Assembly (NCBI GenBank): GCA_016192685.1
Contig: JACPTS010000001.1
Coordinates: 97,710 to 161,709, forward strand
Direction: 5' to 3'
Source of the DNA: Candidatus Harrisonbacteria bacterium
Lineage (GTDB): Bacteria > Patescibacteriota > Minisyncoccia > UBA6257 > 02-FULL-45-10c
Length of the DNA stretch: 64,000 bases
The translations under genes were made by a program, and so were the position numbers. Shown piece by piece: positions 5,682 through 58,155 of this stretch (within the stretch, counting starts at the first letter, position 1; the number at the start of each line of letters is the position of its first letter). Under the pieces are notes generated by a model. That model was given only the letters and a program-made list of their open reading frames with translations, had not been told where the DNA came from and made no database searches.

Positions 5682-8600
5682 CTAAGGCGCCAGGCCGATT
5701 TTAAAATACCAATCCGAAAAAGAATCCGGATAAGGAATAGTAAAATCGCAATAGCTGTCGCAGAGGCCGCTGTTCCCCTTTCCGGCCTGGCCGCCGTCAT
5801 AAAGGTCAGTGCCGGTATTAATCGCGTTCTGCCATTGATTTCGGAAAAATCCGGTATTACCGCTGCTGTAATTTTTAACGTCCAAAACCAGCCAATAAAT
5901 TTCTCCATCGGATAAAGAAACTGCTTCGTCAAAATTAAAAGATAGGTCGGCGCCGGAATCCGGATTGATTAAATTGAGAATGGTTTTTTCAGCAAGTAAA
6001 AAATCAAAATCCGGCAAACCGCCGTTATCCGGATAAATTGAAAGCCGGACATCCGCCGTATCGCTGACCGTCTCCTGCTTCAGCCTTAAAACAACCGTAT
6101 TAAAATCAAAATCCCCAACCACCTCAAGGCTTTGCAGGCTGGCAGTATCCGGACAAGACGGGCAGTTGGGATTTTTTACGCCAAAACTGCTGCTCCAGCC
6201 GTTTGCCTCGGTTTGGCTTATATAAAATGTAGTGGGCGGATAAGACCAGCTGGTGGTGGCGACGGAAGAATAATTTCCAAAATCATCTTTGGCCCGAACG
6301 CCGATTAAAAAGCTGTCGCCGGCAGAAACCGCCTTATTGGCAGTTATGGAACTGCTGTTATTCTGCCACGCCCAATCCGCCAATTCAGTAGTGGTAGAAT
6401 AATTAATCTCATAGTTAATCAAATTTTCTAAAGTATCAGAGTCACTAGCATTCTGCCAATTCAAATTCAATTCTGACTGGCTTGCGTCAAAATTTATTTC
6501 CAAACTGCCGTTAAAAATCGGGGCCTGATGAGTAGGCGCGCTTGCCTGAAAATAATATTTCGTCCGATCCAGCGCCGCTAATTTAAATTTCTGGTCTCCG
6601 CCGCCGGACTGATAAAAAGAATACAGCCCGACCGCCACAAAATCCGAGTTCGTGAAAGTAACGCCATCCGTAGTGGTTGCCAATTCTAATAATAAATGCG
6701 GGTCTTCAAGATTGCTGAATTGCAAAGCCGAATTTTCTACCCCGCCGCCATTACTGCAACGCGCTGCGGTGTCCGGAAGAATCAAAGAATAGCGCTCGGG
6801 ATTTCCGCCGGCGCAACTGGGATATTTTATTTGTAAAACTCCGTTAATAACTGACGATTGCCAATTATTAGCCGCATTTAATTCTAATTCTGCCGGCGCT
6901 TCCTGATTTAAATAAAAAACCAAAATTTTCCAAGTGCTTTGCGCGCCATTTTGATAAATATCAGGAACAAACGGATAATTGACGTAAGAAAAATCCAAAA
7001 GATATTTTTGGCTGGTGGTGCTGCGAGTATCTTTATAGAAATATAAATTAGTAAGCGGCGAAGTAACGCTAAGATTTTTGCTGGTGGTACTGCCGGTTAA
7101 ACCGTCGCGGTCTCTCGGAGTAATAGAAAATAAATAGGTGGTGCCCAATTCTTCTCCAACAAATTTATAACTGCTGGTAGCGCTCAAAGCCGCTAAATCT
7201 TTCAAGGAATTGGTGGAGGTGGCGTACCGCAAAAAATAAGTGATGGTAGAAGTAGCGGCATAATCCTGCGACTCACTCCAATTTAAAATCAGCTCCATCG
7301 TGCTGGAGCTGAAGCTGGCATTCAAAGTCTGAATGGCAGTCGGAGCGTTTCGCGGCTCCGGGAAACTATGGCTGTTTTGGGGATTGGAAGTTGCCCGAAT
7401 TTCAAAATCACTGCTATTACTATTAGTATCGCAGCCATTGCCAAGATATTCCCCGCTGCCTGATGCGGAAACACAGCCACCGCTATAGGCTTTTCGTTCC
7501 AGGCTTTGATTGGCGCCGGGATTGCTGGCAAAAACCGTTCCTTCCAGAAAAACATTTTGCGCTTCTCCCCAACCGACACTATCAATAATCGTTCCCGTAT
7601 CTATTGCGCCTTGCCGAAGCGCCACGGCATTATCATCGGCAATGGTTGCCGTGGTAGTCGCGTCCGGCGTTACAGCAATACTGACATAATTGCTATTTGC
7701 CCAAAGATAAAATCCTTTAGCTGGAACAAAAGCATCACTGGTCCAGGATTTAATGCTCGTATCAGTTGTTCCAGTTTTAGTACGCTTCACCAGCCGATAG
7801 CCGTTTAAATTTATTGACGAGTCGGTAGGATTATAAAGTTCAATAAAATCATTGGTAGTCTGTCCGGTGCCGCCAGTGATTTGAACTTCACTGATTACCA
7901 AGTGAGAAGTCCCGTCGGAAACGCTTGGGGTGGGAGTGGAGCTGGTGCCGCCGGAAGAACCGGAATCCATTTCCGAACTAACAACGAAACTATTTTCCTT
8001 TTTCGGCGTTCCGAAAATATTATTTTCGCCGTTGCCGCTATAAGTATGCCAGCTTAAATCCGAGGAACGTTCCATGGTTTTTCTTGCTGTGCTTTCTCCA
8101 GCCGGCCAATCCAGATTAGCCATCGCTTCATCAACAAGCGCGCAATTTTTATCAAAAAGACGCAGTCCTTCATCAGTATTAGAAAGCGCTCCTGCGTATA
8201 TAGCATCCGCTACCACGCCCGGAACCGAATCATCATCTGTCCGTTCCAAAAGCAGAAAAGCGCCTGCTCCTAATTTAGTTCCGGCCGGAAAAGTAATTTT
8301 AATCTGCTCACTTTTATCCAAAATCTGCCAACCGGAAATATCCAACTGTCCGCCGGAAATATTTTTGACCTCAATCCATTCATCATTAGCGCTTGCCGTC
8401 CCGCCCATCCAAGCCACCTCGTTAATTAAAAATTTCTGGTGATTTGGCGATTGAACAGTTTCATATTTACAAACCGGAAAAGTTGCTTCCCCTTGTCCGG
8501 CGCCAGCCGCGCCAATCGAAACTGATACTGTTTGCGCAGTCGCGGCCGCCGAATTTAAAGTCGCCGATCGTTGGTCGTTAGTTAATGATTGTCGCGCAAC

Positions 8601-22000: not shown

Positions 22001-23158
22001 TTCCACGGAGTTCATATTTTTATCAAACCCATTTCCTTTAGTCGCGTCAGCTCCGCCAACAGCCATCGTAACCGCGGTGGAAGTGGCATTGGGATAACCC
22101 TGCGCTAATCTTTCAAGAGATGTCCCGTCATCCGCCAAGGCCGGAGCGCAAGGCGTAGTGCTTCCCTCGCCGTTTTCACAATTAGCAGTCGGCTGAAGGC
22201 CAAAACCAATCATATCAATTTTGGAACTGGTGGCTTGGGTTGTCGCGGAGGAAGTAGCAATGGAAAATCCGCCATGCAACGATAAAATGCTGGAGGTGGC
22301 ATTATAAACCGCGTCCAAAGGAACCGAACCGCTGTAACCGACTTGAGAACCAATTAAAAAATAACCGTGGCTGGGTATTACTTTTTTAAAATAATAAGTA
22401 AGCGCTACCGGCGTAGAACTGCCGTTCGGATAAAAAGCATGCAGGCGCAAGGGCAAATCCTCTAAATTAATATCCGCTTCCCCGGAATTATAAAGTTCAA
22501 TAAACTCATCGGCTGAATTGCCAGTTGAACCGGCTTTTACTTCGCTAATTTTTAAAGTAGCTGATTGATTAAGAGTTACTTTTTTGCCCGGATTGAAAGC
22601 ACTACCGATTCCGCCGGAAGTGGTACTGGCAAAATTATTCTGCATCCGGACGTCAAACCCATGGCTATTAGTAATGCCGCTAGCGGCCGTAGTAGAAGCA
22701 ACCACATAAAATTCCGTAGAAACAGCGCCGACAGAAGCCGCGGTGCTCGGCGTCAAAACAATCAATGTCCCGTCAGCCAACGGGCTGGTAGAAGCGGCGC
22801 CGGCAATAAAAGTATCTTCGCTAATTTGAAAATCGGGATGAGCGCCGGATTCTTTCCATAAAGAAATTCTGGAAATCTCTCCCTGGCTCATTGTTGAAGA
22901 AGCAAAAATTTGAACCCCAACTTTGCTCAAAGTATCAGAGCCGCTGGCTTGAACCAAACGAAATCTAACCATCGGGATAATCGCGCCGCCGCCAACCGTG
23001 ACGTTCTCAAAAAGCGCGTCAATCGGCGGAGCGTCCACGGTAATAGCTGCCTGGGCGGGCGCCACTAACAAAAAAACGGCTCCGAAAGCCGCCAAAACAT
23101 ATCCCAAACGTTTTGGAAAAGAAATAAAAGAAAAAAATGAAAAAACGCCAGTAGTCAT
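16049..23158 (-). CDS. giant cell-surface protein (lamin-tail, CarbopepD_reg-like/Ig-like repeats, poly-Gly, two C-terminal peptidoglycan-binding domains)
   Basis: 2369 aa with an N-terminal signal/TM segment. Lamin-tail domain (LKISEVKAGSTGNSADEFIELYN...). Several carboxypeptidase-regulatory-like beta-sandwich repeats (GVVSGNGANLNGVAIHL..., ITGKVTDGTNAVGNASVFAY...). A GGGAGGGGGGGGGG tract. Two near-identical C-terminal PG_binding_1-like units (DVKRVQQLLASDKEVYPEGLATGFYG...). Confidence 0.85.
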   Translation of the reverse strand: MTTGVFSFFSFISFPKRLGYVLAAFGAVFLLVAPAQAAITVDAPPIDALFENVTVGGGAIIPMVRFRLVQASGSDTLSKVGVQIFASSTMSQGEISRISLWKESGAHPDFQISEDTFIAGAASTSPLADGTLIVLTPSTAASVGAVSTEFYVVASTTAASGITNSHGFDVRMQNNFASTTSGGIGSAFNPGKKVTLNQSATLKISEVKAGSTGNSADEFIELYNSGEADINLEDLPLRLHAFYPNGSSTPVALTYYFKKVIPSHGYFLIGSQVGYSGSVPLDAVYNATSSILSLHGGFSIATSSATTQATSSKIDMIGFGLQPTANCENGEGSTTPCAPALADDGTSLERLAQGYPNATSTAVTMAVGGADATKGNGFDKNMNSVEFASRTTPQPQNNASATEFPFGGGNQDTSKLQVSGSFPGDQMINAPKDLSYIGFNFNKPVANATIVSASATTTVTLKAGGTGSNLCTSVTYNPFHGNYEPEAKCVLLANSLSGSTSYTFTVTSDVQDLSGNQLDQNTFTAGNQNYTATFTTGGASQTTANITPPRVVGTDPFPGSLNVPTNISKIVAEFSQADMDTTTLNSTNVTLSGGITLSGFTFSTSTGRNALIMTVGSTLTVNATYTLTVGSGVKNLSGIGLPAVYTSVFTVGGQSDATAPALTAALPTPGTTISANTNDFLFTFDDVIDVTTATSGAVTLSKGGGINLPGSVFYNTVSKEGHFTPSNVLPTGETLTLTLKGASLKNVSGVYLGTNVTRSWTVESSNTDSAGPTMLFANGDDFSLAITFDEAVNSTDATTLANYTLTVGGTAQTLSALAGHKLTYDATTRTAKLEGVRLASGSTFVIAAQNIKDISSNLMSGSSSFTGTIASFAASGGFTGPGSFSGSTFGDVKDFSSSGIGFMPPVSVRPLSTFVSASSTYIFELPIAKRIPANGTIVVTFPSTSDFGFCCAATTSANNPLVKDLNKDINGPGDSLTIGISQITKNTTAKTITLKLDTATRSESGDVHDFLKFAVADIKNPSVPKGFDSSGYVLDIKSKDDSGNLLESFNANPVFINGGSLGGGATTTIQGVVSGNGANLNGVAIHLMSPQTGPLDASSDSNGLYQFTNIPINSQFLSNNFGGGGEYYLFTDPFITPTGTTTAFFGETMPAPVRATSTSLLTRNFSLTATSSAINFNVKASTTANTFTATEQIDIFAGGPGQFIVRTVTPGTAALTASTVLTTIPIPQTNGSWGIGIGPPMPKGNAGFSGPPSAPTWSMPKPVNVEVSGCPSACVAKIDNSVASSYTFSISVADKTISGVLKDGSGNAISSAMVFAYSASGGTGNHSQTSASGAFSIKVTSGAYVVGAFNPGMGQSREVSVVVDSSGNVFVDGSPTVSTGSSGANPFTLKMAKPSYKITGKVTDGTNAVGNASVFAYRTDAPGHVDALSDSSTGNYTIYVDNGTWKVSAFIPGFGPMSEQTVIISGANQSDINFAPSSSATFSIYSGYIYEDADSNSAFATSTEGISGAIIRLSGASGVNEAVSSNGEFSVRVPAGSGYTITDIFKPGYGRIAALNNNGNAIGTLNLTASSSNNYIKIPKRNTVVINVKDSNSNALQVTKAFVELFSTSTKQSTYIEISNATTTSLQYATGTTPIIRAFVQGVPPANVSVGSDSTGTSVSSAGALTIDNSTETVKITVNTNTAALSLVSGTVYHTAATAGNELTDAWIQFVDESNGVHFGTTATTSGAYSIKAANGTYKVLVSKPGYIGSPTTVTVSGTTTQNFVLTSASLTIAGQVTTGGSAASGAFVFAEKVGGGQAVTTTDTSGNYTLYVTSGTWRVFAAADGYSKSGYSSNPLTVSASQSSINIALTTTSSLQSKLATSNTFTDSSAGSLSDSTVNVKVDLDTNALGSSGNSSYLTAKQTSNYVDSVSVNIVASKAIDIDAFSGGSQKQNLESGKSATVQLTYTKAELASSGIDTTTEVANLKVVSYSEDKKEWESLSTTATYLDSSSNVVASPASNLSDVSTVTFTALGTHFSNYALSSPTDGDAPSTPSGVAAAAGAAGSKTITVSWTAVSGATGYYIYRDTTSGGSFALLADAGNVSSYADTSATNGTTFFYKVSAYKSSGTSESTASGDVNAKVQISDSGGGAGGGGGGGGGGFASYNYGTSPTPIASLAQAPVAVPKAPSVAQPSPVVQAVSPVFNQDLQSGARNDDVKRVQQLLASDKEVYPEGLATGFYGSLTQKAVLKFQLKHGVVKSGDEPGAGRLGPKTRAKLAEVFGAPKAVPTAPSVAQPSPVVQAVSPVFNQDLQSGARNDEVKRVQQLLASDKEVYPEGLATGFYGKLTEGAVRRFQLKHGVIQNANDPGNGRLGPKTRAKLEEVYGTKSQ
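16075..16677. repeat. tandem duplication, about 309-bp period, 2 copies, encoding the two PG-binding domains
   Basis: Copies at about 16075-16368 and 16384-16677 are nearly identical. They include a 77-bp perfect identity starting at 16268 and 16577. Confidence 0.85.
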
Positions 23159-23209
23159 TTAAAATATATTGAATTTATTATAACAAAACAAAATGGATTT
23201 AAAAAAATC

Positions 23210-23240
23210 GGTTGTGGATAACTTTTCCACTCGCTATAAC
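23210..23240 (-). promoter_or_regulatory. conserved ~30-bp upstream motif containing a perfect DnaA-box 9-mer (TTATCCACA on the minus strand)
   Basis: ggttgtggataacttttccactcgctataac lies 52-82 bp upstream of the giant-protein start. A near-identical motif occurs at 26014-26044 upstream of the 24441-25889 gene. Confidence 0.4.
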
Positions 23241-23370
23241 TATTTGTCTACCGGCACCGGAGTCCGCTTGCTCCTGCGGCAAGCGGCTCTTACGCCTCGC
23301 TCCGAAATTCGCCTTCGGCGATCCAAGCATTTCGGAGCTCCGTAGTTGCCGCACAACAAATAGTTATAGC
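23233..23370 (+). ncRNA. candidate structured RNA or MITE-like element (about 140 nt)
   Basis: 15-bp perfect inverted repeats (gctataactatttgt / acaaatagttatagc) enclose three internal perfect stems: ccgcttgc/gcaagcgg, ctccgaaat/atttcggag, and a nested tcgcc-UUCG-ggcga tetraloop hairpin. No coding potential. The strand is assigned from the UUCG tetraloop. Confidence 0.35.
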
Positions 23371-23402
23371 TCGCTCTATGATATTTTACTTCCTTTAAAA
23401 AT

Positions 23403-23438
23403 AACCGAGCACATAATATTATGTGCTCGGTTATTTCT
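23403..23438 (-). terminator. bidirectional Rho-independent terminator
   Basis: Perfect 12-bp stem aaccgagcacat/atgtgctcggtt, flanked by an A-run on the plus strand (T-run on the minus strand) immediately downstream of the 23454-24386 gene. Confidence 0.7.
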
Positions 23439-23453
23439 CAAGATTTTATAATC

Positions 23454-24386
23454 TTATCTTTTTAGTAAGGCTTCCAAGGCTTTTTTGGCCGCGTCAAGCT
23501 GGGACTGAAGAGCAGATTTAGAAGTAGAAGGGGCTGGGGCTGGAGTCGGTGCTGGAGCCGGCGCCGGAGCTGGTTTTGATTTCAACAAATTCTGCAATGC
23601 CTCTTTAGCCGCGTCAAGCTGGGATTGAAGAGCAGATTTAGAAGTAGCAGGAGCTGAAGCAGGTGCTGGAGTTGGAGCCGGAACAGCTGGTTTTTTTATT
23701 CTGTCTAATAAAGCTTTAAGCTGGCTGGCGGCTGCGTCAAGTTGGGAGCGCAATCTAGACGGAGTGGATGGCGCTGAAACTGGAGCCGCAACAGGCGCTG
23801 GGACTCCTCTTACTTTATTTAGAAGATTTTGAAGTTGTTGTTTCAAATTTTCTAAAAGAGAAGCAGTTGGAGAAAGTGGTCTAGCAGGAGTTAATTGACC
23901 AGCTGGAGTTAATTGAGCTGTTGGAGCTAATGTTGTGCCAGTTCCGCCTCCACCTCCACCACCGCCGCCTCCTCCACCACCACCGCCGCCGCCTCCGCCG
24001 CCAAGACCAGAGCAAGTTTCTGTAGTAGAAGGAGTAATAGTAACCGTAACTGTGCCGGAATCCTGGGCGGCAAAAACAGTAACGGATGATTCAGAAGACG
24101 TACAGCTGGATTCTTGTTGGATGGCGCCAGTAGCAGAAACCGCGAATTTTCTCCGGTCAGTTGAACTCATACCAAAAGATTTGGAAGGGCTCAAAACAAC
24201 ATCCATACTGGCCGTATCCACGGTAATAGAATCAATAACCCGATCAACGGCAGTTACCAAGAAGGTATAACTGCCAATCACTATTTCCGTATTGCCGCCG
24301 CCAGTCAAGGTAAGATCATTCGCGGCAAAAGCAAACAAAGGCAAAAGCAAAGCTGACAAGATTTTTAAATAAATCTTTTTTTTCAT
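23454..24386 (-). CDS. secreted repetitive protein with a 21-residue poly-Gly tract and Pro/Ala-rich C-terminal repeats
   Basis: 310 aa with a signal peptide. G21 run, then three repeats of the type KSALQSQLDAAKEALQNLLK plus PAPAPAP. Confidence 0.7.
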   Translation of the reverse strand: MKKKIYLKILSALLLPLFAFAANDLTLTGGGNTEIVIGSYTFLVTAVDRVIDSITVDTASMDVVLSPSKSFGMSSTDRRKFAVSATGAIQQESSCTSSESSVTVFAAQDSGTVTVTITPSTTETCSGLGGGGGGGGGGGGGGGGGGGGTGTTLAPTAQLTPAGQLTPARPLSPTASLLENLKQQLQNLLNKVRGVPAPVAAPVSAPSTPSRLRSQLDAAASQLKALLDRIKKPAVPAPTPAPASAPATSKSALQSQLDAAKEALQNLLKSKPAPAPAPAPTPAPAPSTSKSALQSQLDAAKKALEALLKR

Positions 24387-24440
24387 AAATTAATGTTGTC
24401 AATCCCCCACCTAATTTATGTGGGGGATAAATGCTCAAGT

Positions 24441-25889
24441 TTATTGACAAGTTCCAGTTACCCAAACGGCAAAGAATCCTGATTTGCCGCTTGCAGCTGT
24501 AGCAGTCGCGAAAGCGCCTGGATCAGCAGGACCGATATACAATATATAATTTGTTCCATTAGAACCTCTCATTTGTATGCAACTGCCTTCAGGATTGGAA
24601 TCTGCCTGTAAGACAATAGTAGTTGTAGCACTGCTGGTAGCTGTTACTAAACTATTACTAAATAGAGTCGTGCCGCCAACGCTCAAAGTGCTGGAAGCGC
24701 TAAGAGGACCAGTAACATTCAACTGGGCAGCCACAGTGGAAGAAGAAGTCGTGACGAACCCGGCTAAGGTTGACAAGCTATTGACGGTTAAGGTGCCTTG
24801 AGTGGCAAAAGCTCCGGTAGAGGCAGTCGTGGTAGCTGTGCCGTTAACCCTCACATCGCCATAAAGGAAAGAGGTGCTGGTAACCGCTAAAGTGCTGGAG
24901 GCATTTAATTGGCCGGAGGCGGTAAGCTGAGCCACGCTGGAAGAAGCATTGGAAATAAATCCGCCAGTCAGAGTGGAAAGGCTATTAACTAATAACGTTG
25001 AAGAAGCGCTAAGAGGGCCGGTAACATTTAACTGGACAACAGCAGTGGAAGAAGCAGTCGTGATGAACCCGGCTAAGGTTGACAAGCTATTGACGGTTAA
25101 GGTGCCTTGAGTGGCAAAAGCTCCGGTAGAGGCAGTCGTGGTAGCTGTGCCGTTAACATTAAGGTTGTCATACAACGAAGTAATGCCAGTAACTGCCAAT
25201 GTGCTGGAGGCGAACAAAGAGCCGCGAGTGGTGAAATTACCGCTAGCCGCAGTCGTGGTAGCTGTGCCGTTAACATTAAGATTATTATATAACGTAGAAA
25301 TACCGCCAACTGACAATGTTGAAGAAGCGCTAAGAGAGCCATTAACATGCAATTGGGCATTAGCAGTGGAAGAAGAAGTAGTGATATATCCGGCTAAGGT
25401 TGACAAGCTATTGACGGTTAGAGTGCCTCGAGTAGCTAAATTACCCGAAGCAGCCGTAACCGTGGCAGTGCCGTTGATATTTACATCGCCATAAAGAAAA
25501 GAAGTGCTGGTAACCGCTAAAGTGCTGGAGGCATTTAATTGGCCGGAGGCGGTAAGCCGAGCTACGCTGGAAGAAGCATTGGAAATAAATCCGCCAGTCA
25601 GAGTGGAAAGGCCGTTAGCTAATAAAGTGCTGGAGGCATTGAATGGACCGGATACTTCCAACTGGGCATTTACAGTTGAAGAAGCTTTAGTAACAGAACC
25701 GCCAGTCATAGTAACCAAACCCGTGAGAGTAGAAGTATCAGTAACGCTCAAAGTACCGCCGGTGCTTAAATTAACACCGATTGTGGTAGCGGCAGTGGCT
25801 ACTAACCAAACGACCAAACTGGAAAGAACAACAGCAGTAAATACAGCAAAATATTGCTGCTTTCTGCTTAACGCATAACTTTTATTCAT
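24441..25889 (-). CDS. membrane-anchored repetitive surface protein (about 30-aa Ser/Thr/Asn-rich repeats)
   Basis: 482 aa with an N-terminal TM. About ten repeats of the type SSTLAVTSTSFLYGDVNINGTATTTASTGAFATQGTLTVNSLSTLAGF, and a Cys-containing C-terminal tail. The DNA carries near-identical ~90-120-bp repeats (for example 24761-24848 versus 25070-25157). Confidence 0.7.
   Translation of the reverse strand: MNKSYALSRKQQYFAVFTAVVLSSLVVWLVATAATTIGVNLSTGGTLSVTDTSTLTGLVTMTGGSVTKASSTVNAQLEVSGPFNASSTLLANGLSTLTGGFISNASSSVARLTASGQLNASSTLAVTSTSFLYGDVNINGTATVTAASGNLATRGTLTVNSLSTLAGYITTSSSTANAQLHVNGSLSASSTLSVGGISTLYNNLNVNGTATTTAASGNFTTRGSLFASSTLAVTGITSLYDNLNVNGTATTTASTGAFATQGTLTVNSLSTLAGFITTASSTAVVQLNVTGPLSASSTLLVNSLSTLTGGFISNASSSVAQLTASGQLNASSTLAVTSTSFLYGDVRVNGTATTTASTGAFATQGTLTVNSLSTLAGFVTTSSSTVAAQLNVTGPLSASSTLSVGGTTLFSNSLVTATSSATTTIVLQADSNPEGSCIQMRGSNGTNYILYIGPADPGAFATATAASGKSGFFAVWVTGTCQ
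24731..25460. repeat. intragenic near-identical DNA repeats (~90-120 bp, at least 3 copies) in the surface-protein gene
   Basis: cggctaaggttgacaagctattgacggtta... recurs at 24761, 25070 and 25391. Confidence 0.8.
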
Positions 25890-26013
25890 AATCCTTTATT
25901 TTGAGAACCTAACCCTTTATAAAGATAGATTCTAAAATTATATTATTTTTACGACCTTAATTTTTAATTTTAATTTGTAATGAAATTAAGTATAAATAAA
26001 TCAGCAATTGGTG

Positions 26014-26044
26014 AAAAGGGGTGGGCTGTGGATAACTTTTTCAT
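26014..26044 (-). promoter_or_regulatory. second copy of the conserved upstream motif with the TTATCCACA 9-mer
   Basis: ggctgtggataactttttcatcgcttatcgc lies about 130 bp upstream of the 24441-25889 start. It has the same orientation as the 23210-23240 copy. Confidence 0.4.
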
Positions 26045-28968: not shown

Positions 28969-30091
28969 GCTTTTTATTATAGAAATCCAAAATTAATTTT
29001 TCAAAAGTTCTCTCGTAATTTTCCATGGTGTATGATTTAACCATTTCCACGCCGGCTTTTCCCATTCTCTCTCTCGCCGCGCCATCGCGAAGCAAAATTA
29101 AAATTTTATCCGCCAGTTCCGCGGAATTTGCCGGCGGCACCGCAAAACCGGTTTCCCCATTCTTCACAAAAATCGGAATGTCCCCGATCGTAGTGGACAC
29201 TACCGGCTTTCCAAAACTCAATGCTTCCATAATCACAAAAGGCATATCGGTCCTAGTAGACGGATCAACGAAAATATCCGCAATCGGCAAAATATTTTCA
29301 ATGTCCGATTTGCCAAGAAATAATCCGGGAAATAAAACTCTATCTTCCAACTTGAGACTTGAGACTTGAGACTTGAGACTTTCTTCCAGCGGCCCCCAAC
29401 CGACTATTAAAAAATAAGCATTTGGAAATTTTTCCAAAACCAGCTTAGCGGCATCAATCAGATATTTATGCCCCTTTTCCGGAACCAATCGGCTGATCGT
29501 CAAAACAACCATAGCATCCTTTGGCAATTCTAAATCCTTGCGGATTAAATCCGGATTTCTCCCCTTAGATTTATCCACAAAAGACGGCGCGTACATGGTT
29601 ATAAATTTTTCCAAAGGAATTTTTTCCTGCTTAACGGTAAAAAATTTAGCCGCGTCCGAATCCGTGATTATTTTGTCAGTCCATTTGGACAAAATCCAAT
29701 CCATCCAAATCTGCCAGCGATGCTTATCTTCATATATATTATGCTCGTGAATGATAATCACCGGAACTCTCATGATTATCGCGGCCAGACGAACAATCAA
29801 ATTAGCGGAAAAAAGCGCGGTAACTGCCACGTCAAATTTCTCTTTCCGCAAAAAAATGAATAATTTTGTCCAGGCGGCTAAATCAAACAAGGATCGAAAA
29901 TTCAGCCGCTTCCAATAATCATCCGGCAAAACAATTTTTTCCTCAAAAGTGGCGCTTGGTTTCTCAGGAAACAAAGTTAAAAGATACGGCTCAAATTTTC
30001 CCCTATCCACAACGGGCAATTGATTTACCAATAATTTTTCCGCCCCGCCAACCGATAGACGGCCAATGGCAAAAAGTATTTTCTTACGCAT
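28958..30091 (-). CDS. glycosyltransferase family 4 (GT-B)
   Basis: GT4 architecture with a C-terminal EALSFGKPVV...E-x7-E-like region. The start is assigned to the internal Met (MRKKILFAIGRL), which removes the overlap with the downstream gene; the ORF track extends to 30130. Contains the 7-bp repeat tract at 29350-29381. Confidence 0.78.
   Translation of the reverse strand: MRKKILFAIGRLSVGGAEKLLVNQLPVVDRGKFEPYLLTLFPEKPSATFEEKIVLPDDYWKRLNFRSLFDLAAWTKLFIFLRKEKFDVAVTALFSANLIVRLAAIIMRVPVIIIHEHNIYEDKHRWQIWMDWILSKWTDKIITDSDAAKFFTVKQEKIPLEKFITMYAPSFVDKSKGRNPDLIRKDLELPKDAMVVLTISRLVPEKGHKYLIDAAKLVLEKFPNAYFLIVGWGPLEESLKSQVSSLKLEDRVLFPGLFLGKSDIENILPIADIFVDPSTRTDMPFVIMEALSFGKPVVSTTIGDIPIFVKNGETGFAVPPANSAELADKILILLRDGAARERMGKAGVEMVKSYTMENYERTFEKLILDFYNKKHAN
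29350..29381. repeat. heptanucleotide tandem repeat (acttgag, about 4.5 copies) inside the GT4 coding sequence
   Basis: Read directly: aacttgagacttgagacttgagacttgagactt. The 7-nt unit is not a multiple of 3, so copy-number change would frameshift. Confidence 0.9.
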
Positions 30092-55772: not shown

Positions 55773-56573
55773 TCAACGCATTATCGCTCCGCCATCAACA
55801 AAAAGTATTTGCCCGGTAATGTTTTTCGCCTCGTCAGAGCCGAGAAAAACCGCCGCCATCCCGATGTCTTCCGGAGTTTGCTCTCGCTGAAGCGGCACTA
55901 ATTCTTTCATGCGCTTTTCAAAAATGGCGCGCGGTTCCATATTTTGATATTTCTCCGGAAATAATTCTTTTAAATTTTCGGCAATATGTTCCCAAAGCGG
56001 CGTCCAAACCAATCCCGGCGCGATGGCATTCACCGTAACGCCATACGGAGCGAATTCGTGGGCAAGAATTTGGGTAAAAGTGGCGACTCCCATCTTGGCC
56101 ACGCTATACGGCGGTTTCATGCGGCCGGGCATGAATGCCGCGATAGATGAAAGATTAATAATTCTTCCGGATTTGCGTTCCTGAAAATGCGGCGCGATTG
56201 CTTTAGCGGCATAAAAAACTGGTTTCATATTAAATTTCCACGCCTCATCCCAATCTTCTTCGGTATTCCGAGTGAACGGCAGTCCGGGCCGGCATTCTTT
56301 TCCGACATTATTAACTAAAATATCTATTCCGCCGAATTTTTCAATCACTTTCCTGAAAAAATCATTTATCTCTTTTTCTTGAGTAACATCTAATTTTACC
56401 GCCGACACCTTTGCCCCGGACTTGGATAATTCCGATGCCGCGTTTTCCGCTTGTTCTAAATTAATATCAGCAATAACCGCGATTGCTCCTTCTTTTGCCA
56501 TGCAAGAGACAATTCCCTTTCCAATGCCGCTGGCGCCGCCGGTCACAACTGCTACTTTATTTTTGAGTCTCAT
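55773..56573 (-). CDS. SDR-family oxidoreductase
   Basis: 266 aa. VAVVTGGASGIGKG with catalytic YxxxK (YSVAK). Confidence 0.88.
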   Translation of the reverse strand: MRLKNKVAVVTGGASGIGKGIVSCMAKEGAIAVIADINLEQAENAASELSKSGAKVSAVKLDVTQEKEINDFFRKVIEKFGGIDILVNNVGKECRPGLPFTRNTEEDWDEAWKFNMKPVFYAAKAIAPHFQERKSGRIINLSSIAAFMPGRMKPPYSVAKMGVATFTQILAHEFAPYGVTVNAIAPGLVWTPLWEHIAENLKELFPEKYQNMEPRAIFEKRMKELVPLQREQTPEDIGMAAVFLGSDEAKNITGQILFVDGGAIMR

Positions 56574-56593
56574 AAATATTTTAATTATTAATT

Positions 56594-57397
56594 TTAACGC
56601 ATCACTGCGCCGCCGTCCACGAATAATATTTGTCCGGTGATATTTTTTGCTTCATCAGAGGCAAGAAAAACCGCCGCCATCCCGATGTCTTCCGGAGTTT
56701 GTTCTCTTTTTAAAGGAATCAAATCGCTTACATGCTTATTAAAAATCTGCCGCGGAGACATTTTTTTATATTTTTCCGGCCATCGCTCAACCAGCTGAGG
56801 CGCGAACCCTTCCCATAAAGGCGTCCAAACCAATCCCGGCGCGATGGCATTCACCGTAACGCCATACGGAGCGAATTCGTGGGCAAGAATTTGGGTAAAA
56901 GTCGCTATGCCGACCTTGGAAACGCTGTAATGGGGTTTAGTAAGTCCGGGCATAAATCCGGCAATAGAAGACATATTAATAATCCTACCTGATTTACGTT
57001 CCTGAAAATGCGGCGCGATTGCTTTAGCGGCATAAAAAACCGGCTTCACGTTAACATCCCAGACCAAATCCCAATCTTCTTCAGTATTATTAGTAAATGG
57101 CATTCCCAACTTTCCGGTAACACCAACGTTATTCACCAAAATATCAATTCCGCTAAAATCATCAATAACTCTCTTAATCGCTTTCCGCGTTTCTTGTTCT
57201 TTAGTAACGTCCACTTGTAATGCCAGTCCGCGAGTACCATAAGAATCCGCGCAAAATTTCATAACCTCTTCCGCTTGTTTTATATCACGGTCAGCAATAA
57301 TCGCGATTGCCCCCTCTTTTGCCATACAATTCACAATGCCTTTTCCAATGCCGTTGGCGCCGCCGGTTATAATTGCTACTTTATTTTTGAGTCTCAT
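56594..57397 (-). CDS. SDR-family oxidoreductase (tandem paralog)
   Basis: Start placed at the internal Met (MRLKNKVAIITGGANGIGKG); the ORF track extends to 57427. Shares stretches of up to ~85 bp identical to the adjacent paralog. Confidence 0.85.
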   Translation of the reverse strand: MRLKNKVAIITGGANGIGKGIVNCMAKEGAIAIIADRDIKQAEEVMKFCADSYGTRGLALQVDVTKEQETRKAIKRVIDDFSGIDILVNNVGVTGKLGMPFTNNTEEDWDLVWDVNVKPVFYAAKAIAPHFQERKSGRIINMSSIAGFMPGLTKPHYSVSKVGIATFTQILAHEFAPYGVTVNAIAPGLVWTPLWEGFAPQLVERWPEKYKKMSPRQIFNKHVSDLIPLKREQTPEDIGMAAVFLASDEAKNITGQILFVDGGAVMR

Positions 57398-57402
57398 TAT
57401 AA

Positions 57403-58155
57403 TTATTTTACTTGCTTTTCTTCGCAATGCGCGTTCATTAAGGCAAATTTCGGATTTTCATCTAAATATGTAAGCACCTCCAGAACGCTGATAATCTGCC
57501 CTCCGCCCTTATAAAATTTTTTATAGATCAATTCCATTAGCTCAAAATCTTCCGGAAAATCCACGGTCAGGCGATAATTCCGCGCGTATTTCGGCGGAGC
57601 AATAACTATCGGACCGATTTTAAATTCTCCTTTTTTATTGTCCATAATATAAGGATCTACATGCTCTTTGTCGTAAGCCGAAGTCGCTTCCCGAAACGCT
57701 TTCTCAATCGCCCGGAAAGAAAATATCTCGCAGTCAAGGCCGCGCGGAAAAGTTCTCTCGCCGGAAAATACATTACTGATGTAATCATAATTATCTTTTT
57801 TAAACGCCTCTAAACATAAATCAATAATTTTAGGGTCAATTAACGGGCAATCAGCAGTGATGCGAACAACAGTATCACCGGCAGTAGCGCCATATTTTTT
57901 TGCCGTTTCATAATAACGCTCCAGAACATTTTCCACCGATCCCCGAAAATATAAAAAATTATTTTCCCGGCAAAATTTTTCCGTTGCGTCATCTTCCGGC
58001 GCAATCGTGGTGGCTACTATAACTTTATCTATATAACGAGAACGCCTTACCCGGTTAACCACGTGCCAGAGCTGGGGCTTGCCCGCTAAATCTTTTAAGA
58101 TCTTTCCCGGCAGGCGGGTAGAACCCATCCGAGCCTGAATAATAGCTAAAATCAT
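57403..58155 (-). CDS. cytidylyltransferase (PseF/SpsF/acylneuraminate cytidylyltransferase family; third copy)
   Basis: 250 aa. LAIIQARMGSTRLPGKILKDLAGKP. Confidence 0.8.
   Translation of the reverse strand: MILAIIQARMGSTRLPGKILKDLAGKPQLWHVVNRVRRSRYIDKVIVATTIAPEDDATEKFCRENNFLYFRGSVENVLERYYETAKKYGATAGDTVVRITADCPLIDPKIIDLCLEAFKKDNYDYISNVFSGERTFPRGLDCEIFSFRAIEKAFREATSAYDKEHVDPYIMDNKKGEFKIGPIVIAPPKYARNYRLTVDFPEDFELMELIYKKFYKGGGQIISVLEVLTYLDENPKFALMNAHCEEKQVK

What the first reader, a model, noticed from the sequence alone, without database searches (positions are those of the whole stretch)
23210..26044. Conserved 30-bp upstream motif containing a perfect DnaA-box 9-mer in front of two surface-protein genes
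GG(T/C)TGTGGATAACTTTT(C/T)C... occurs at 23210-23240, 52-82 bp upstream of the 2369-aa gene, and at 26014-26044, about 130 bp upstream of the 482-aa repeat-protein gene. Both copies have the same orientation relative to their gene, with 22 of the first 26 positions identical. On the gene strand the core reads TTATCCACA, the consensus DnaA box. A degenerate version (TGTGGgggATAA) sits upstream of the third surface-protein gene at about 24412-24423. Inference: the large surface proteins share an operator bound by DnaA or another transcription factor, possibly coupling envelope-protein expression to replication or growth state.
Basis: partly seen in the sequence, partly recalled or inferred. Interest (0 to 1): 0.55.

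Follow-up and report, generated by a model that had tools for sequence, protein, structure and literature searches.

The report
Conserved DnaA-box element in Parcubacteria promoters
Two surface-protein genes of an uncultivated groundwater bacterium carry a perfect binding-site sequence for the replication initiator DnaA at a fixed distance upstream of their promoters, and related species keep it there, so it is probably a real regulatory site, although nobody has shown which protein binds it.

Summary
The motif is real. GGAAAAGTTATCCACARCC (gene strand) occurs at 23210-23228 and 26024-26042, and the perfect 9-mer is over-represented in the window. It is one arm of a hairpin 3' of the 482-aa gene.

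Related Parcubacteria keep a TTATCCACA-type 9-mer at the same place upstream of orthologues of both genes. It is the only invariant block in those otherwise diverged intergenic regions. In 10 of 13 sites scored across candidate-phyla-radiation (CPR) bacteria, a -10 hexamer starts 28-32 nt after the box; seven of those ten are the extended TGn type, and there is no conserved -35.

The same layout precedes pilin, membrane-channel-like, DUF3276, EF-Tu and small-RNA genes, so it is not specific to surface proteins. Box flanks and tolerated variants match ordinary DnaA boxes.

The best reading is a single high-affinity DnaA box centred near -47 that helps RNA polymerase at promoters lacking a -35. 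Binding and direction of effect are inferred, not shown.

The box is not part of the adjacent inverted-repeat (IR) element. That element is a separate, widespread, strongly covarying structured RNA-like repeat absent from Rfam. It sits next to box promoters more often than chance predicts.

The parts
23210..23228 (-). Copy 1 of the motif: GGAAAAG-TTATCCACA-ACC on the gene strand, core 9-mer at 23213-23221. It sits 30 nt upstream of the -10 of the 2369-aa gene.
   Evidence: Orthologous positions in L193 (TTATGCACA) and L194 (TTATCAACA).
23177..23185 (-). Extended -10 TGTTATAAT of the 2369-aa surface-protein gene (ATG at 23158). The -35 region reads TTTTTA, 3 of 6 matches.
   Evidence: Sequence reading; spacing analysis.
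26024..26042 (-). Copy 2 of the motif: GAAAAAG-TTATCCACA-GCC on the gene strand, core at 26027-26035. It lies 12 nt after the stop of the Wzy_C/TPR gene and 32 nt upstream of TATACT.
   Evidence: The orthologues L125, L126, L132, L124 and L091 keep it.
25989..26017 (-). Predicted core promoter of the 482-aa/310-aa unit: TTTTCA, 17 nt, TATACT.
   Evidence: promoter scan.
25951..25959 (-). 5'-UTR motif TAAGGTCGT, about 70 nt upstream of the 482-aa ATG. It recurs in leaders of envelope genes in other CPR contigs.
23233..23370 (-). GC-rich structured inverted-repeat element directly 5' of copy 1 on the gene strand. It belongs to a large covarying family and is not part of the motif.
23403..23432 (-). 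Hairpin followed by ATTTTT on the minus strand: intrinsic terminator ending the 482-aa/310-aa unit.
   Evidence: Sequence reading (I1).
24404..24430 (-). Not a box.
29571..29579 (+). Third perfect TTATCCACA, inside the glycosyltransferase gene and antisense to it, with flanks T at -1 and A at +1. Probably incidental.

Best explanation
Each copy is a single consensus DnaA box with the usual flanks (AAG-TTATCCACA-RCC). It is built into a promoter module of fixed geometry: box, then 28-33 nt of non-conserved spacer, then a -10 hexamer that is often the extended TGn type, with no usable -35. This puts the box at about -51 to -43 from the predicted start site. That is just upstream of where a -35 would be and overlaps the zone where UP elements and class I activators act.

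The most likely mechanism is that DnaA occupies the box and stabilises RNA polymerase at these -35-less promoters. High-affinity boxes of this type bind both the ATP and ADP forms of DnaA. Transcription of abundant envelope genes and some others would then follow the amount of initiator protein.

Shown: sequence identity to the box, conservation at orthologous sites, fixed spacing and orientation, and DnaA-type flanks and degeneracy. Inferred: that DnaA is the binding protein, that the predicted -10 elements are the real ones, and that the effect is activation.
For: - The motif is present twice, against a chance expectation of 0.12.
- Loci orthologous to the 482-aa gene keep the order Wzy_C/TPR gene, intergenic region, repeat protein. 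All carry the 9-mer at the start of that intergenic region: TTATCCACA in L126, L132 and L091, TTATTCACA in L125, TTATTAACA in L124.
- In the six-species alignment, AGTTAT..ACA is the only contiguous invariant block.
- Orthologues of the giant protein carry TTATGCACA (L193) and TTATCAACA (L194) at the same place.
- Ten of 13 CPR sites have a -10-like hexamer starting 28-32 nt after the box, against a background of 4.5 per cent per site (binomial P about 1e-11). Seven of the ten, and eight of the 13 sites overall, have a TGn extension.
- Every unseeded intergenic box points toward the downstream gene.
- The variants at box position 5 (C, T, G) fall on the N of the classical TTATNCACA consensus.
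- 86 unseeded DnaA boxes in oriC/dnaA-type loci of many phyla prefer A at -2, G at -1 and G at +1. The CPR sites have the same flanks.
- DnaA bound to high-affinity boxes in the promoter region is reported to activate nrdAB by stabilising the RNA polymerase-DNA complex (PMC8203912).
Against: - No binding data exist. No dnaA gene or oriC of a Parcubacterium was available to show that its DnaA uses this 9-mer.
- In E. coli, DnaA in vivo prefers pairs of boxes 2-3 bp apart, and only 13 of 32 single consensus boxes are bound (PMC11317965). The sites here are single boxes.
- A centre near -47 is not a canonical activator position.
- Two orthologous variants (TTATTAACA, TTATCAACA) change the conserved C at position 6.
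- One distant orthologue, L195, has a normal -35/-10 promoter and no box.
- The spacing window was chosen after looking at the data, and five of the sites are orthologous to each other.
- Gene calls in the loci came from a naive ORF finder.
Confidence: 0.5

Rival explanations
1. The element is a real promoter component, but something other than DnaA reads it: a lineage-specific transcription factor, or RNA polymerase itself as an UP-like or extended upstream element. On this view the identity to the DnaA box is coincidental or convergent.
For: The fixed distance to the -10 and the lack of a -35 would also fit a polymerase- or factor-specific upstream element. An A-tract (GAAAAAG) often precedes the box at the position of a distal UP subsite. 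Single boxes are poor predictors of DnaA occupancy in E. coli. The downstream genes look like abundant structural genes rather than replication genes.
Against: The match is 9 of 9 to the universal DnaA box. The flanks preferred at bona fide boxes are present, and the variable position is exactly the N of TTATNCACA. No other known factor with this site can be named from the evidence in hand.
Confidence: 0.25
2. The boxes bind DnaA but serve replication control, as titration or reactivation sites like datA, DARS or the Bacillus DnaA-box clusters. They lie in intergenic DNA only because that is where they are tolerated.
For: Three perfect boxes fall within 6.4 kb. Boxes outside oriC with such roles are known (general knowledge; mentions DARS2).
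Against: Those sites are clusters of boxes, whereas these are single boxes. The conserved orientation and the 28-33 nt distance to a -10 are not needed for titration. The third box is intragenic with atypical flanks. There is no origin-like GC-skew switch.
Confidence: 0.07
3. The motif is the terminal part of the adjacent repeated inverted-repeat element and spread with it. It is not a promoter feature.
For: Copy 1 abuts the element. In five cases (window, L124, L156, L161, L174) a box promoter follows a copy of the element. In four of them the box starts 10-11 nt after the element's 3' GAGCG motif, which is a non-random association.
Against: Only about 5 of 56 distinct copies are followed by a box-like 9-mer. 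Copy 2, L091, L104, L125, L126, L132, L143, L193 and L194 have the box without the element. The element's covarying helix ends before the box.
Confidence: 0.05
4. The motif is a promoter reading the other way, in the TGTGGATAAC direction. That is the arrangement in many dnaA promoters, where the box overlaps the -35. It would drive an antisense or plus-strand RNA, for example across the inverted-repeat element.
For: In copy 1, TTGTGG, 17 nt, TATAAC can be read on the + strand. In the multi-phylum loci a -10 lies 16 nt after the box in that direction in 7 cases, and in L110 the box overlaps a -35.
Against: No -10 is conserved in that direction in copy 2 or its orthologues, where it would point into the 3' end of the Wzy gene. 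The G-U versus A-C counts put the structured element on the minus strand.
Confidence: 0.03

Closest known systems
DnaA-activated promoters, e.g. E. coli nrdAB (high-affinity DnaA boxes in the promoter region)
   Same: Consensus DnaA boxes sit in the promoter region outside oriC. The proposed action is stabilisation of RNA polymerase (PMC8203912).
   Different: nrd has two nucleotide-independent boxes plus a DnaA-ATP site and a normal promoter. Here there is one box, a fixed 28-33 nt distance to an often extended -10, and no -35. The genes are surface, pilin and membrane proteins, EF-Tu and a small RNA rather than replication functions. Binding is untested.
Autoregulated dnaA promoters and the rpmH-dnaA divergent region
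   Same: The identical 19-mer occurs there in many phyla, for example L041, L012, L036 and L038.
   Different: There the box overlaps the -35, with the -10 about 16 nt away in the TGTGGATAA direction, and it represses. Here the box points the other way and lies upstream of the core promoter.
DnaA-box clusters outside oriC (datA, DARS1/2, B. subtilis DBCs)
   Same: Perfect boxes in intergenic DNA away from the origin.
   Different: Those are clusters or pairs of boxes acting on DnaA itself. These are single boxes with promoter-locked geometry.
UP elements and class I activator sites
   Same: Position just upstream of the -35 zone, with an A-tract flank, apparently compensating for a missing -35.
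   Different: The sequence is a specific GC-containing 9-mer, not an A/T-rich UP consensus.
REP/BIME elements, MITEs and multi-copy structured small RNAs (for the adjacent inverted-repeat element)
   Same: Multi-copy, intergenic, highly structured, sometimes in inverted pairs, and often at contig ends.
   Different: The outer stems differ in sequence between copies while the junction nucleotides are conserved. 39 of 44 pairs covary, with G-U far exceeding A-C on one strand. That points to selection on an RNA fold rather than on transposase-binding terminal repeats. There is no Rfam match.

Membership tests
DnaA box (DnaA-binding site) | 9-mer matching TTATCCACA or the relaxed TTATNCACA | tested here: met
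   Perfect 9 of 9 at 23213-23221 and 26027-26035. Orthologues carry TTATCCACA, TTATTCACA and TTATGCACA, plus two off-consensus variants, TTATTAACA and TTATCAACA.
DnaA box (DnaA-binding site) | Flanking-base preference seen at bona fide boxes | tested here: met
   86 unseeded boxes from oriC/dnaA-type loci of many phyla show A at -2 (54), G at -1 (49) and G at +1 (53). CPR sites read AAG-box-G/A.
DnaA box (DnaA-binding site) | Paired boxes 2-3 bp apart, the form preferentially bound in vivo in E. coli | tested here: not met
   No conserved second box next to the sites. Only copy 1 has a 7 of 9 inverted half (AGTGGAAAA) 1 nt away, and it is not conserved (criterion from PMC11317965).
DnaA box (DnaA-binding site) | Physical binding by the organism's DnaA | not testable with these tools
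   Needs a gel-shift or footprint assay with Parcubacterial DnaA.
DnaA box (DnaA-binding site) | The organism encodes DnaA and uses the same 9-mer at its oriC | not tested
   No dnaA gene is in the window or in any Parcubacteria locus held. A Saccharibacteria dnaA locus (L021) does carry TTATCCACA boxes.
DnaA-regulated promoter | Box at a conserved position and orientation relative to core promoter elements | tested here: met
   Ten of 13 sites have a -10 starting 28-32 nt after the box, P about 1e-11. All unseeded intergenic boxes are co-oriented with the downstream gene.
DnaA-regulated promoter | Transcription changes when DnaA level or the box is altered | not testable with these tools
   Experimental.
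Chromosomal replication origin (oriC) | Cluster of boxes, AT-rich unwinding element, dnaA/dnaN neighbourhood, GC-skew switch | tested here: not met
   The boxes are single and 2.8 kb apart. The neighbours are polysaccharide and surface-protein genes. GC skew stays negative or near zero with no switch.
Terminal motif of the adjacent repeat (mobile-element hypothesis) | Motif present at the same end of most copies | tested here: not met
   About 5 of 56 distinct copies are followed by a box-like 9-mer.
Known RNA family (for the inverted-repeat element) | Match to an Rfam covariance model | tested here: not met
   No match at gathering score in the window. Nothing relevant at E up to 10 over 23100-23500.

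The most novel reading that the evidence does not exclude
In Parcubacteria, and perhaps in CPR bacteria more widely, a single DnaA box at about -47 is a standard upstream module of a class of -35-less, extended -10 promoters. These promoters drive the most abundant envelope components (giant and repeat surface proteins, pilins, a channel-like membrane protein) and also EF-Tu and a small RNA. In these minimal cells the replication initiator would then double as a global transcription activator that ties cell-surface and growth-gene output to the replication state. The module is also physically linked to a previously undescribed family of structured RNA repeats.
Probability: 0.25. Interest if true: 0.7.

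Novelty: new variant of a known kind. Interest (0 to 1): 0.5.

Why it matters
Almost nothing is known about transcription control in CPR/Patescibacteria. They cannot be grown alone and have very few recognisable regulators.

A conserved promoter module with fixed geometry, built on the universal DnaA box, gives a concrete and cheap hypothesis to test. Tests could include a gel shift with recombinant DnaA, in-vitro transcription, and start-site mapping from existing groundwater metatranscriptomes. If confirmed, it would show how these reduced cells couple synthesis of their surface layer, pili and translation factor to the replication cycle.

The finding also widens the known repertoire of DnaA as a transcription factor beyond replication and cell-cycle genes. 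The by-product, a widespread strongly covarying RNA-like repeat absent from Rfam, is a candidate new RNA class in its own right.

Tried and rejected
1. Lineage-specific operator. The 19-mer scan of GTDB genomes returned at least 119 hits in many phyla, including dnaA promoters and oriC-like clusters. The sequence is therefore the generic DnaA box. From the flank frequencies measured at unseeded boxes, I estimate that this number of exact 19-mers is roughly what the very large number of DnaA boxes in 185,579 genomes would give. Cross-phylum identity of the outer flanks is therefore not evidence of anything further.

2. Recent duplication of the two window copies. A local alignment of the two upstream regions scores 68-75, against a shuffle mean of 36 and maximum of 55. 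Most of that score is the core, and the AT-rich flanks add little. The shared GAAAAAG...RCC context is also the cross-species consensus.

3. Third copy at about 24412. Rejected; it is a hairpin arm.

4. oriC. Rejected.

5. Small hairpin GTGGA/TCCAC around copy 1 acting as a terminator. It is not conserved in copy 2 or the orthologues.

6. Plus-strand promoter. Not conserved.

7. Box as part of the inverted-repeat element. Rejected.

8. Target-site duplication at the element's ends (GCGA). Replaced by a better reading: a tandem G.A motif followed by two to four more covarying pairs.

9. Recovering the source genome. Exact-protein look-ups gave only short Logan contigs of the same organism, which break at the repeats.

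11. Viral contigs contain no copy of the element.

12. Literature searches for DnaA boxes in Patescibacteria, or for this RNA, found nothing.
Full report
**Setting.** The window has 42 per cent G+C. Nearly all its genes lie on the minus strand. They form a polysaccharide and glycosyltransferase cluster interrupted by three surface-protein genes:
- a 2369-aa protein with LTD, Big_5, CarboxypepD_reg and PG_binding_1 domains;
- a 482-aa beta-helix-like repeat protein;
- a 310-aa protein with a poly-Gly run.

Homologues of these proteins are named by their sources as Parcubacteria: Giovannonibacteria, Niyogibacteria and Harrisonbacteria. No tRNA and no Rfam family is found in the window.

**The observation.** GGYTGTGGATAACTTTTYC occurs exactly twice, at 23210-23228 and 26024-26042. 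Expectation was 0.12, and no shuffle reached 2. The perfect 9-mer occurs three times against 0.37 expected. On the gene strand the two copies read GGAAAAG-TTATCCACA-ACC and GAAAAAG-TTATCCACA-GCC.

The third perfect 9-mer (29571-29579) is intragenic, antisense and has atypical flanks. One-mismatch boxes are only weakly enriched and not clustered, and GC skew shows no origin-like switch. This is therefore not an origin.

**What the 19-mer is in general.** Many hits sit in clusters of further DnaA boxes. Others lie in the rpmH-dnaA divergent region directly in front of a dnaA gene, and tblastn finds dnaA in 14 of the loci.

In 86 additional, unseeded TTATCCACA boxes from these loci the flanks are strongly biased: A at -2, G at -1 and G at +1. 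The motif is therefore the generic, flank-extended DnaA box, not a lineage-specific operator. From those flank frequencies I estimate that this many exact 19-mers is about what the huge number of boxes in the collection would yield. I draw no further conclusion from the cross-phylum identity.

**Conservation at orthologous sites.** Homologues of the 482-aa protein share an N-terminal anchor, an ATTIxxNxxTGGxL motif and a C-terminal GGCIQL...YRMY...WExGSC domain. They lie in the same gene order, Wzy_C/TPR gene, then intergenic region, then repeat protein, then a second small protein, in L125, L126-L131 and probably L132 and L124.

In each case the intergenic region begins, a few nucleotides after the Wzy stop, with the box in gene orientation:
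- L126 and L132: TTATCCACA
- L125: TTATTCACA
- L124: TTATTAACA

A GTDB metagenome-assembled genome (L091) with a homologous protein also carries the exact 19-mer. In a six-species alignment of these upstream regions (mean identity 52 per cent), AGTTAT..ACA is the only contiguous invariant block.

For the giant protein, two orthologous loci carry TTATGCACA (L193) and GAG-TTATCAACA-G (L194) at the corresponding place. A more distant orthologue (L195, 45 per cent identity) has an ordinary TTGACT/TAGAAT promoter instead. The variable position, with C, T or G at position 5, is the N of the classical TTATNCACA consensus.

**Promoter geometry.** Thirteen CPR sites were scored: the two window copies, the orthologues of the 482-aa gene listed above, and boxes found in contigs fetched for an unrelated reason. 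Ten of them have a -10-like hexamer starting 28-32 nt after the box. The background probability for that window in the same intergenic DNA is 4.5 per cent, giving a binomial P of about 1e-11. Seven of those ten, and eight of the 13 sites overall, have the TGn extension. L193 (32 nt) and L194 (31 nt) were read afterwards and fit the same spacing.

The spacer is not conserved. It is a C-run followed by a T-run in several sites and a genuine terminator hairpin in L125. It contains no consensus -35. The scan tool finds only TTTTCA, 17 nt, TATACT for copy 2.

Taking the start site about 7 nt after the -10, the box spans roughly -51 to -43. All unseeded intergenic boxes point toward the downstream gene. 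The P value is inflated by two things: the window was chosen post hoc, and five sites are orthologous. The non-conservation of the spacer nevertheless makes the preserved distance informative.

**Which genes carry it.** Besides the two surface-protein families, the same layout precedes:
- a protein with the mechanosensitive-channel TM helix (L143);
- a prepilin with the N-methylation motif (L174);
- a DUF3276 protein (L104);
- EF-Tu, with a 41-nt spacing (L104);
- an unidentified RNA of about 140 nt with its own terminator, in two organisms (L156, L161).

An RNase P RNA gene and several other promoters in these contigs lack it. So it marks a subset of promoters, but not a surface-protein-specific regulon. 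In the multi-phylum set the 30-nt arrangement is a minor mode. The dnaA-type arrangement, with the box overlapping the -35 and reading the other way, is the more prominent mode.

**Mechanism.** The best-supported reading is a DnaA-dependent upstream promoter element. A single high-affinity box would be occupied by DnaA whatever its nucleotide state. It sits one or two helical turns upstream of an extended -10 and makes up for the missing -35 by contacting or positioning RNA polymerase. This parallels what is reported for the high-affinity boxes of nrdAB (PMC8203912).

Points against this reading:
- In E. coli, DnaA in vivo prefers double boxes and ignores most single consensus boxes (PMC11317965).
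- No Parcubacterial dnaA or oriC locus could be examined.
- Two orthologous variants alter a conserved C.

The main rival is that another factor, or the polymerase itself, reads the element. Titration-site, mobile-element, antisense-promoter and chance explanations fit the geometry and distribution poorly.

**The adjacent inverted-repeat element.** The 138-nt GC-rich element at 23233-23370 folds far better than shuffles on either strand (z = -6.4 and -7.1). It has a homologue directly upstream of the box in L124. Between those two sequences alone, 24 of 44 pairs are compensatory.

A pattern taken from its conserved junctions found 60 metagenome contigs, mainly Rifle and Hainich groundwater. 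A covariance model recovers 66 further matches besides the two training sequences, at 59-137 bits. Six contigs hold two copies, and six copies are cut by contig ends.

Across 63 distinct sequences, 97 per cent of cells pair and 39 of 44 pairs show double changes. All shuffled and slid controls score far lower. G-U plus U-G counts are 102, against 13 for A-C plus C-A. This places the selected fold on the window's minus strand. The helix continues past a tandem G.A motif (5' ..YGA, 3' GAR..) with further covariation.

Orientation relative to neighbouring genes is mixed. There is no Rfam match and no viral-contig match. I read it as a multi-copy structured RNA or RNA-like repeat of unknown function.

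Only about 5 of 56 distinct copies are followed by a box-like 9-mer, so the box is not part of it. Yet in the window, L124, L156 and L174 the box starts 10-11 nt after the element's GAGCG end, and L161 has a box promoter about 120 nt downstream. That is far more than chance for a motif this rare. The association is unexplained.

**Verdict.** The feature is best filed as a new variant of DnaA-box-containing promoters, with binding still to be shown.

Noticed in passing
window 23233-23370 (minus strand); L124 736-886; L133-L192: A structured element of about 140 nt (long outer stem, tandem G.A, three-way junction with conserved AACUACGGA, GCUUGG and GAGGCGUA) forms a large family in groundwater CPR metagenomes. 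There are 66 matches besides the two training sequences, 97 per cent pairing, 39 of 44 pairs compensatory, and G-U far exceeding A-C on one strand. It has no Rfam or viral match. Some contigs carry two copies, sometimes inverted and 20-30 nt apart (L153, L162). A subfamily is nested in a further 21-24 bp outer stem (L135, L142). It is a candidate new RNA class or RNA-like repeat.
   Followed up: partly
window 23210-23232; L124 887-915; L156 about 1582-1600; L174 about 755-785; L161 about 1700-1827: The box promoter and the structured element are neighbours more often than chance allows. In four loci the 9-mer starts 10-11 nt after the element's 3' GAGCG motif. At the same offset other copies carry TTGACA, 17 nt, TAnnnT (L148, L170, L190). 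It is unclear whether the element inserts next to promoters or carries one.
   Followed up: partly
window 25951-25959 (minus strand); L125 2938; L132 1296; L143 (minus strand, 67 nt upstream of the channel-like ORF); L160; L180; L126 2954; L174 833: A short leader motif, (A/T)A(A/G)GGTCG(A/T), or AGCGTCG in two loci, lies 11-70 nt (mostly 34-70 nt) upstream of the start codons of envelope genes. These are the repeat surface protein, the MS-channel-like protein, a T4SS pilin and a type IV prepilin. It sits downstream of the predicted -10 at a variable distance. It could be a second regulatory signal that is more specific to envelope genes than the DnaA box.
   Followed up: partly
L156 about 1640-1790 and L161 about 1865-2010: A conserved non-coding stretch of about 140 nt (AAGCGAnCCGAGnGATTCGGAATTCGCGAA...GACAGTTAGATCTCTGTC...) is driven by a box promoter and ends in an intrinsic terminator. 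It has no Rfam match at E below 0.01. It looks like an unidentified small RNA gene.
   Followed up: partly
L084 about 2820-2950 and L094 about 7449-7580 (same Saccharibacteria MAG): The identical 19-mer forms the border of a repeat shared by two contigs. It is followed by two copies of the hairpin CGAGGCCGGGCCTCG and then by iteron-like tandem repeats (ATATAATTCCAAA, ATATGGTTTCCTTA; TTGTGATGATA x4). This resembles a plasmid- or phage-type replication origin.
   Followed up: no
window 24404-24426: The hairpin CCCCCAC-N9-GTGGGGG, with no T-run, lies between the 482-aa and 310-aa genes. The two genes are probably co-transcribed, and the hairpin's role (processing or stability) is unknown.
   Followed up: no
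window 24441-25889 and homologues P0001-P0018: This is a family of Parcubacterial surface proteins. Members share an N-terminal anchor, a conserved ATTIxxNxxTGGxLxVxG motif, a variable number of roughly 100-aa Thr/Ser/Gly-rich repeats and a C-terminal Cys-containing GGCIQL..YRMY..WExGSC module. They always sit next to a Wzy_C/TPR (O-antigen-ligase-like) gene. There is no Pfam assignment beyond a weak Bactofilin-like repeat match.
   Followed up: partly
L193 about 2030-2160; L195 about 2030-2260: A different GC-rich inverted repeat with TTTCGTAATT-type outer arms lies upstream of the orthologues of the giant surface protein. It is a second kind of structured intergenic repeat in these genomes.
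   Followed up: no
window 55775-57419: Tandem duplication of a segment of about 820 bp at 75-84 per cent identity, covering two adjacent paralogous genes (55773-56573 and 56594-57427).
   Followed up: no
L126, L129-L131 positions 1-437: A Y1 (IS200-like/RAYT-like) transposase gene (weak Pfam hit) lies directly upstream of the Wzy_C/TPR gene in the Giovannonibacteria-type contigs. It may be relevant to the origin of the structured repeats.
   Followed up: no
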